NCBI RefSeq assembly: GCF_009834535.1
Contig: NC_045713.1
Span: forward strand, 6,448,001-6,512,000
Origin: Camelus ferus
Lineage: Eukaryota
Length of the DNA: 64,000 bases
Direction: 5' to 3'
The notes beneath the pieces were generated by a model. It searched no databases, was not told the DNA's origin, and saw only the letters and a list, made by a program, of their open reading frames with translations. A program made the translations under genes and the position numbers. Numbering within the stretch: position 1 is the first letter of the stretch; each line of letters opens with the position of its first letter. Positions 15,504 through 15,990 of this stretch are shown piece after piece.

Positions 15504-15990
15504 GGGGCAGGGGGCAATGTGGGGGTGGCGGAGAAGTAGGCACAACGTACTGGGTGTAAGATAGACTGAAGGATGTATTGTACAAGAAGACGATCTGTTA
15601 TCTGATAATGACAGTGATTTCCTGGTTCTTACCGCAGAAATACAGTATAATTCACGAATTTTTATCGCAAGTGGCTGTCAACAATACTAAACCTCATGAA
15701 GAAAATGCGTCGGTGATTTCTAACAACACTATTCTAACAATATGTTAACACTAAATTGGTTCTGGAGTCCCACTGATAAAAAGTAGGAACTAGGTGTATT
15801 ATGTGTGAATAAATAATGTGAACCAATTAAATAAACAAATGATCAGTCACAACAAAAAAACGGTGATTGCATAACATTGGGAATATAGGCAATATTTTAT
15901 ACAAATTGTAAAAGGAAAGTAACTTTTCTAAATTATGTAAATTTTAAAAAATTTAATTAAAAAATTTACTTAAATGAAAATCAAAATTAA
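15504..15990 (+). mobile_element. Cetartiodactyl L1 3'UTR fragment interrupted by a 289-nt insert (15586-15874)
   Basis: gggtgtaagatag...aggatgtattgtacaa | insert | cattgggaatataggcaatatttt...ggaaagtaac plus A-rich tail. The two flanks join into the recalled contiguous L1 3'UTR. Confidence 0.7.

What the first reader, a model, noticed from the sequence alone, without database searches (positions are those of the whole stretch)
15586..15874. Unexplained AT-rich, CpG-undepleted, A-tailed insert inside an L1 3'UTR
Seen: the L1 sequence gtattgtacaa|cattgggaatatagg is split by 289 nt resembling nothing else in the window. Over 15586-15860 it is about 33% GC in a GC-rich region, with 6 CpG against about 7.5 expected (O/E about 0.8; bulk mammalian DNA is about 0.2-0.25). 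It has AATAAA at 15830-15835, an A7 run at 15854-15860, a degenerate duplication (ggatgtattgtacaa / cggtgattgcataa), and a stop-free frame through its 5' part (KTICYLIMTVISWFLPQKYSIIHEFLSQVAVNNTKPHEENASVISNNTILTIC*, stop at 15746-15748). Inference: the 3' end of an RNA from an unmethylated, possibly non-mammalian source (virus, parasite, transferred transposon) copied in by L1 machinery, or an assembly chimera.
Basis: partly seen in the sequence, partly recalled or inferred. Interest (0 to 1): 0.7.

Follow-up and report, generated by a model that had tools for sequence, protein, structure and literature searches.

The report
Orphan A-tailed retrocopy inside camelid L1
A 289-base piece of DNA with no detectable twin in this camel-family genome sits inside an old jumping gene; it is real, and was likely pasted in from the tail end of an RNA, most likely one of the animal's own, though its source was not found and a viral or parasite origin is not excluded.

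Summary
The insert is real: contigs from 4 of 4 runs laid span both junctions at single-copy depth, so it is no assembly chimera. It splits a 5'-truncated L1 with no base lost. Its 3' end looks like target-primed reverse transcription: AATAAA 18 nt before A7 (p about 0.004), then a decayed 17-bp target-site duplication (12/17, p about 0.01). The 53-codon frame is chance (p 0.53). The CpG excess is real but modest: 0 of 267 non-overlapping matched tiles and 7 of 483 overlapping windows reach 6. It lies only in the 5' half and runs on into the left flank. Without CpG the composition is ordinary host DNA. No source was found in the own genome, mitochondrion, bornavirus-like elements, Pfam, PDB, 1.8 billion proteins, or viral, metagenome, phage and plasmid sets. 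Best reading: an old L1-made retrocopy or orphan transduction of a host RNA whose source has diverged, been lost or is withheld (about 0.5). A foreign mRNA end stays open (about 0.25). It is a known kind of event with no function shown.

The parts
15477..15493 (+). Candidate left target-site duplication of the host L1
   Evidence: 13 of 17 identical to 15998-16014; the allele at 15488 seen in run X4 makes it 14 of 17; not tested against a null
15509..15585 (+). Left arm of a 5'-truncated L1 3'UTR fragment (its 5' edge may lie about 15 nt further left)
   Evidence: L1 profile hit E 3e-20; 11 of 74 differences from the consensus of 29 copies; a longer copy of the family (L028) encodes the L1 ORF2 C-terminus, E 1e-35
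15569..15585 (+). Left copy of the insert's 17-bp target-site duplication (inferred)
   Evidence: Identical to the L1 consensus; 12 of 17 identical to 15859-15874
15586..15720 (+). 5' part of the insert: GC 38%, all 6 CpG (O/E 1.25); no credible reading frame
   Evidence: codon-position bias of 15586-15687 is matched by 15% of 267 control tiles
15721..15853 (+). 3' part of the insert: AT-rich, no CpG, 3'UTR-like
15808..15813 (+). Upstream AATAAA
15830..15835 (+). AATAAA, 18 nt before the A run (likely the polyadenylation signal used)
   Evidence: 10-30 nt spacing as stated in PMC13009371 (passages)
15854..15860 (+). A7 run, likely a shortened poly(A) tail; its last two A also fit the duplication
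15859..15874 (+). Right, decayed copy of the target-site duplication (4 substitutions, 1 deletion; inferred)
   Evidence: the L1 profile independently extends the right-arm alignment 9 nt into it
15875..15997 (+). Right arm of the L1 3'UTR and its A-rich tail
   Evidence: Profile hit E 7e-9; 13 of 65 differences from consensus
15998..16014 (+). Candidate right target-site duplication of the host L1
15305..15712 (.). CpG-bearing patch (15 CpG) that straddles the left junction
   Evidence: Positions; 0 of 140 local and 0 of 18 distal matched tiles reach 15 (bounds chosen after seeing the data)

Best explanation
A single-copy 289-base insert splits an old L1 fragment, and L1 proteins likely made it by target-primed reverse transcription of the last 270 or so bases of a polyadenylated RNA, most likely a transcript of the host lineage. 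Shown: the insert is in the genome, the L1 resumes at the next base, and the insert ends in AATAAA, 18 nt, A7 and a 16-nt stretch resembling the 17 nt left of the junction. Inferred steps: ORF2p nicked the older L1 copy just before 15569, primed on the RNA's A-tail, stopped early (5' truncation) and left a 17-bp duplication. The event is old, since that duplication has decayed about as far as the host L1's own. The RNA was a gene or lncRNA 3' end, or an orphan 3' transduction, whose source has since diverged by more than about 20-25%, been deleted, or is withheld or missing in this assembly. The CpG excess is partly a local patch that runs on into the flank and partly the tail of chance. It is most likely a neutral fossil that does nothing.
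For: Real and single copy. Clean interruption of the L1. Signal plus tail p about 0.004; duplication p 0.006-0.009, beginning right at the A run and 17 bp long, and picked up independently by the L1 profile. Age: the host L1's arms differ from consensus at 24 of 139 sites and its own candidate duplication at 4 of 17, against 5 of 17 for the insert's. With CpG words skipped, the insert's Markov score sits at the 38-64th percentile of 134 held-out host tiles. The 3' half has no CpG and the left flank has 9 in 286 nt. AT-rich windows beside CpG-richer DNA average 2.25 CpG and 3 of 95 reach 6. Orphan transductions and retrocopies with these hallmarks are described in PMC13009371 and PMC3663115 (passages). 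That host-derived retro-insertions outnumber non-retroviral viral ones by about a hundredfold is recalled, from no call.
Against: No parent in the own genome by DNA, by a 24-nt pattern with up to 3 mismatches (6 other places, none extending) or by three translated frames. A parent under about 20% diverged would mostly have been seen (upper-bound simulation 0.94 at 20%, 0.71 at 25%). The CpG count favours an unmethylated donor by about 10-36 fold in a toy model with assumed rates, and 0 of 267 non-overlapping tiles reach 6. The left flank's CpG count alone is unremarkable (33 of 241 local tiles reach 9). All 5 differences fall on the right copy of the duplication and none on the left. The nick site reads CCTT/GA in the consensus, a poor match to TTTT/AA (PMC3663115). 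The tail is only 5-7 A.
Confidence: 0.5

Rival explanations
1. Same L1 mechanism, but the RNA was foreign: the 3' end of an mRNA from a virus, a parasite or a horizontally transferred transposon with undepleted CpG, inserted when local divergence was about 5-10% and now partly decayed.
For: No host parent found. CpG outlier and a likelihood ratio of about 10-36 in the toy model. A GC-richer 5' part followed by an AT-rich 3' part fits the end of a coding region plus a 3'UTR. L1 capture of viral mRNA with poly-A and duplication is described, including elements that similarity searches miss (10.1101/2022.05.06.490909, passages). This genome holds bornavirus-G-like elements.
Against: No hit in Pfam, PHROGs, PDB, 1.84 billion representatives (one tandem-repeat artefact), word-index protein searches, viral contigs, metagenomes, phages or plasmids. 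No similarity to the genome's own bornavirus-like loci or mitochondrion. The 3' half has no CpG. An old virus-derived element here has lost its CpG (O/E 0.13). Reading frame and codon bias are at chance level.
Confidence: 0.25
2. Capture of a DNA or cDNA fragment at a double-strand break by end joining. The true junction is a 2-bp AA overlap, and the last 14 nt are either an error-prone templated copy of the flank or chance. The insertion could then be young and keep its donor's CpG.
For: It reconciles retained CpG with an imperfect duplication whose differences all lie on one copy. Poor endonuclease site, short tail. No differences inside the insert in 4 of 4 runs, against 5 variant sites in about 1,200 flank bases (not significant).
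Against: It needs AATAAA, A7 and the start of the duplicated stretch to line up by chance (p about 0.004 and 0.01). No local template in 264 kb around the site. A young host fragment would have been found.
Confidence: 0.15
4. Assembly chimera or contamination.
For: All 4 runs laid carry a flag that they may be this DNA's source; 11 of the 20 holders are so marked.
Against: Single contigs span both junctions in 4 of 4 runs from 4 studies and 3 organism labels; X4 and X12 differ from the window at 4 and 3 flank sites, so they are other haplotypes. 16 of 24 listed runs hold every sampled word.
Confidence: 0.01

Closest known systems
Orphan L1 3' transductions (PMC13009371, passages)
   Same: Unique sequence only, a few hundred bases (medians 335 bp somatic, 968 bp germline), ending 10-30 nt after AATAAA in an A-tail, with a target-site duplication.
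   Different: The source locus that defines a transduction was not found; the duplication here is decayed and the nick site is non-canonical.
Gene retrocopies / processed pseudogenes (PMC3663115, passages)
   Same: Poly-A at the 3' junction and a target-site duplication; 5' truncation can leave only the 3' end.
   Different: No parent gene, no exon-exon junction, no protein homology.
Endogenous bornavirus-like elements made by L1 (10.1101/2022.05.06.490909; PMC5834213; passages)
   Same: A single insertion with poly-A and a sometimes imperfect duplication; some are invisible to plain similarity search.
   Different: No similarity to bornavirus families or to this genome's own G-like elements. 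The tail follows AATAAA spacing, and no reading frame runs up to the tail.
NUMT
   Same: The commonest insert from an unmethylated source; this genome's mitochondrial contig has CpG O/E 0.74.
   Different: No similarity to the mitochondrial contig: best score 153 against a null mean of 176.

Membership tests
L1-mediated (TPRT) insertion of a non-L1 RNA | A-tail at the 3' junction with an upstream polyadenylation signal | tested here: met
   AATAAA 15830, A7 15854; p about 0.004; the tail is short
L1-mediated (TPRT) insertion of a non-L1 RNA | Target-site duplication flanking the insert | tested here: inconclusive
   12 of 17 identical, right place and length, p 0.006-0.009, but all 5 differences on one copy
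L1-mediated (TPRT) insertion of a non-L1 RNA | Endonuclease site resembling TTTT/AA | tested here: inconclusive
   CCTT/GA in the consensus, CCTT/CA in the window: a pyrimidine-purine step but 3 of 6 letters off the consensus given in PMC3663115
Processed pseudogene / retrocopy | Identifiable parent gene, with introns removed | tested here: inconclusive
   No parent found; sensitivity falls beyond 20-25% divergence and withheld stretches read N
Orphan 3' transduction | Source sequence lying downstream of an L1 elsewhere in the genome | tested here: inconclusive
   Same negative searches; no source in 264 kb around the site
Non-retroviral endogenous viral element | Homology to a viral gene | tested here: not met
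   short, decayed or non-coding viral sequence would escape these searches
NUMT | Homology to mitochondrial DNA | tested here: not met
DNA transposon or MITE | Terminal inverted repeats | tested here: not met
   None at the insert ends among 13 inverted pairs in 15440-16060
Known mammalian interspersed repeat | Match to a Dfam or Repbase model | not testable with these tools
   No repeat library held; indirect copy-number evidence says single copy
LINE-1 (host element) | 3'UTR family continuous with L1 ORF2 | tested here: met
   Copy L028 of the same 3'UTR family matches L1 ORF2p residues 1019-1272, E 1e-35; Pfam gave no family at E 0.01

The most novel reading that the evidence does not exclude
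The insert is the fossil 3' end of an mRNA from a virus, parasite or transferred transposon that no searched collection holds, reverse-transcribed by L1 into the camelid germ line millions of years ago: an endogenous foreign element recognisable only by its ends and its CpG, of a class that homology screens cannot see.
Probability: 0.25. Interest if true: 0.55.

Novelty: new member of a known kind. Interest (0 to 1): 0.25.

Why it matters
If host-derived, it matters little: one more neutral retro-insertion, of use as a presence/absence marker in camelid phylogeny. If foreign, it would be a dated record of an unknown infection or parasite of camel ancestors, and would show that A-tail, duplication and CpG can flag viral fossils that protein-based screens miss. 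Even then 270 non-coding or barely coding bases would say little about the donor until a relative is sequenced.

Tried and rejected
Filovirus nucleoprotein C-terminus (a recalled resemblance): no support in Pfam, PDB or a family search of the own genome. Bornavirus P, N or G (recalled resemblance): none. NUMT: rejected. P0001 (E 1e-9) is a singleton tandem-repeat ORF whose score is summed over 6 repeats of at most 28 bits each. L037, a 23-of-24 pattern match, does not extend beyond 30 nt and lies in what reads as an old L1 (recalled); L039 is a weak A-rich match. Rfam: 4 matches at E up to 10, all below gathering score. Phage and plasmid matches at E 3-5 only. The 15582-15882 joint in 3 of 4 runs is another L1 copy (30 letters on a side, different letters between), not an empty allele. 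Two runs on record as RNA hold 0.46 and 0.42 of the words and four DNA runs hold next to none; none of these was laid, so they say nothing on expression, relatives or empty alleles. The protein atlas gave no result. The covariance model R1 was never searched. No structure prediction was run, as 34-53 residue frames without relatives would give a meaningless model. Earlier-finding look-ups by sequence, relatives and words returned nothing.

Full report
Setting. The window is G000:C18:6448001-6512000 of a 2.09-Gb mammalian assembly. Earlier notes on this genome call it camel-family (unchecked here); I use 'camelid' on that basis. The insert is intergenic, between the 3' end of a lysyl-hydroxylase gene (PLOD3; name recalled from the translations) and a DAGAT-family gene copy starting about 0.7-1 kb to the right.

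Observation. There is a second AATAAA at 15808.

It is real. Of 24 runs listed, 20 from 9 studies hold the stretch or part of it and 16 hold every sampled word; 11 are marked as a possible source. I laid 4 of the 24. In all 4, one contig spans both junctions, and depth over the insert equals the flank (8-14) while the L1 arms draw up to about 1,800 at 85% likeness. All four carry a possible-source flag, but X4 and X12 differ from the window at 4 and 3 flank sites, so they are other haplotypes. No run differs inside the insert. The chimera reading is refuted and the insert is single copy at that likeness; contigs that resemble human DNA are filtered out of such runs, which limits this last point.

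The host element. A search with the left arm gave 40 scored matches from 254 candidates; 29 non-self loci were aligned. The two arms join at consecutive consensus bases, so nothing was deleted. They differ from the consensus at 24 of 139 sites (17%), against a median of 10% for the 29 copies, which were selected for likeness. A longer copy encodes the L1 ORF2 C-terminus (E 1e-35). The fragment has its own candidate duplication, 13 of 17 identical (15477-15493 and 15998-16014).

Junction anatomy. AATAAA lies 18 nt before A7; a Markov null gives this near the 3' end in 0.4% of 5,000 trials. Directly at the A run begins a 16-nt stretch that matches the last 17 nt of the left arm at 12 positions; 3 of 526 insert-derived words and 0.9% of 3,000 random words score as high, and the 5' end shows nothing alike. 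An L1 profile from 9 longer copies extends the right-arm alignment 9 nt into this stretch and does not hit the insert body. These are the hallmarks of target-primed reverse transcription as given in PMC13009371 and PMC3663115 (passages). Against: all five differences are on the right copy, the nick site is CCTT/GA rather than TTTT/AA, and the tail is short. There are no terminal inverted repeats. I put TPRT at about 0.75-0.8.

The reading frame means nothing. The longest stop-free frame, 53 codons, is the median of the null (p 0.53). Codon-position bias in the 34-codon frame is matched by 15% of 267 tiles.

CpG. The excess is real but modest. Among non-overlapping 275-nt tiles of GC 29-37%, 0 of 96 local and 0 of 171 distal reach 6 (pooled O/E 0.18 and 0.14); among 135-nt tiles, 2 of 288 and 0 of 279 do. 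Among overlapping AT-rich windows beside GC-richer DNA, 7 of 483 reach 6, and 3 of 95 where the neighbour has O/E of 0.35 or more. All six CpG lie in the first 135 nt and the next 140 nt have none. They continue a run of nine in the left flank, which alone is unremarkable (33 of 241 local tiles reach 9), although the joint patch of 15 is reached by 0 of 158 tiles (bounds chosen after the fact). With CpG words skipped, the insert is ordinary host sequence (38-64th percentile of 134 tiles). An old bornavirus-G-like element in this genome has O/E 0.13, so very old foreign inserts lose their CpG. Germ-line hypomethylated regions that arise and widen in single lineages are described in PMC5793779 (abstract and opening); I have no methylation data for this site.

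Source search, all negative. Own genome: DNA (one candidate each), a 24-nt pattern with up to 3 mismatches (7 places including self, control 5; none extends), three + strand frames, 264 kb around the site, the mitochondrial contig (score 153, null mean 176) and bornavirus-like loci. The L1 hits shared words of 13-20 nt with their query; a parent would keep a 14-nt word with probability 0.99, 0.94, 0.71 and 0.42 at 15, 20, 25 and 30% divergence. These are upper bounds, and withheld stretches read N. Outside: Pfam in six frames (best E 0.04), PHROGs, PDB, word-index searches, 1.84 billion representatives with the 34-codon frame only (one artefact, 42-44), viral contigs, metagenomes with the 53-codon frame only, phages and plasmids, Rfam. 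None of these holds mammalian genomes, a repeat library or a full eukaryotic-virus set, and the minus-strand frames went only to Pfam and the bornavirus-like loci.

Weighing host against foreign. A toy model (assumed: 10 starting CpG for an unmethylated donor, survival exp(-12d), background 1.4) fits an unmethylated donor best at about 10% divergence and favours it over a host-like donor 36-fold at 10% and 11-fold at 17%. The higher local background would shrink this. Failure to find a parent adds perhaps 2-5 fold (my estimate). Host-derived retro-insertions outnumber non-retroviral viral ones by about a hundredfold (recalled). The result is roughly 2 to 1 for a host RNA: 0.5 host TPRT, 0.25 foreign TPRT, 0.15 break capture, 0.08 unseen repeat, 0.01 artefact. 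These odds rest on assumed numbers.

Literature. Searches for camelid viral fossils (listings only) showed no title on such a locus; none of my searches named this locus. The supplements of PMC11089739 gave one camelid dependoparvovirus element and one alpaca hepacivirus row in 2 of 12 files. PMC5834213 (passages) reports a laurasiatherian G element, with camelids among the hosts. 10.1101/2022.05.06.490909 (passages) shows L1-captured viral mRNAs that similarity searches miss; its supplements were not seen and might list further hosts. PMC8605555 (passages) confirms L1 as the main camelid LINE. Listings 74, 78, 79, 93 and 98 served to find these papers.

Verdict. A genuine, single-copy, probably old L1-made insertion of an RNA 3' end with no source identified. 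It is a new member of a known kind with no function shown. Interest 0.25; the foreign reading (0.25) would deserve about 0.55.

Noticed in passing
window 16560-18450 (+): A second DAGAT-family (MOGAT-like) gene copy upstream of the main one; its apparent first exon has an in-frame TGA at about 16649, so it is likely a pseudogene.
   Followed up: partly
window 26895-27347 (-): Reads like a frameshifted retrocopy of a UBE2E-type ubiquitin-conjugating gene (name recalled; no Pfam hit at E 0.01).
   Followed up: partly
G000:C13:17539822-17541154 (L075-L077) and G000:C9:18460033-18460203 (L074): Broken bornavirus-glycoprotein-like elements over the Pfam cut-off; the C13 one has CpG O/E 0.13. One may be the laurasiatherian element of PMC5834213; synteny not checked.
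   Followed up: partly
G000:C3:44110798-44112138 (L047): A COX1 match on a chromosome with the same score and frame as the mitochondrial contig C2043 (445.4 bits): a very recent NUMT or mitochondrial DNA placed in the chromosome by the assembly.
   Followed up: no
window 15334 and 15488: Two of the five flank variants among the four runs fall on the C of CpG sites in the patch left of the insert.
   Followed up: no
window 56776-57200: Another AT-rich stretch with raised CpG (3-4 per 275 nt, O/E up to 0.7).
   Followed up: no
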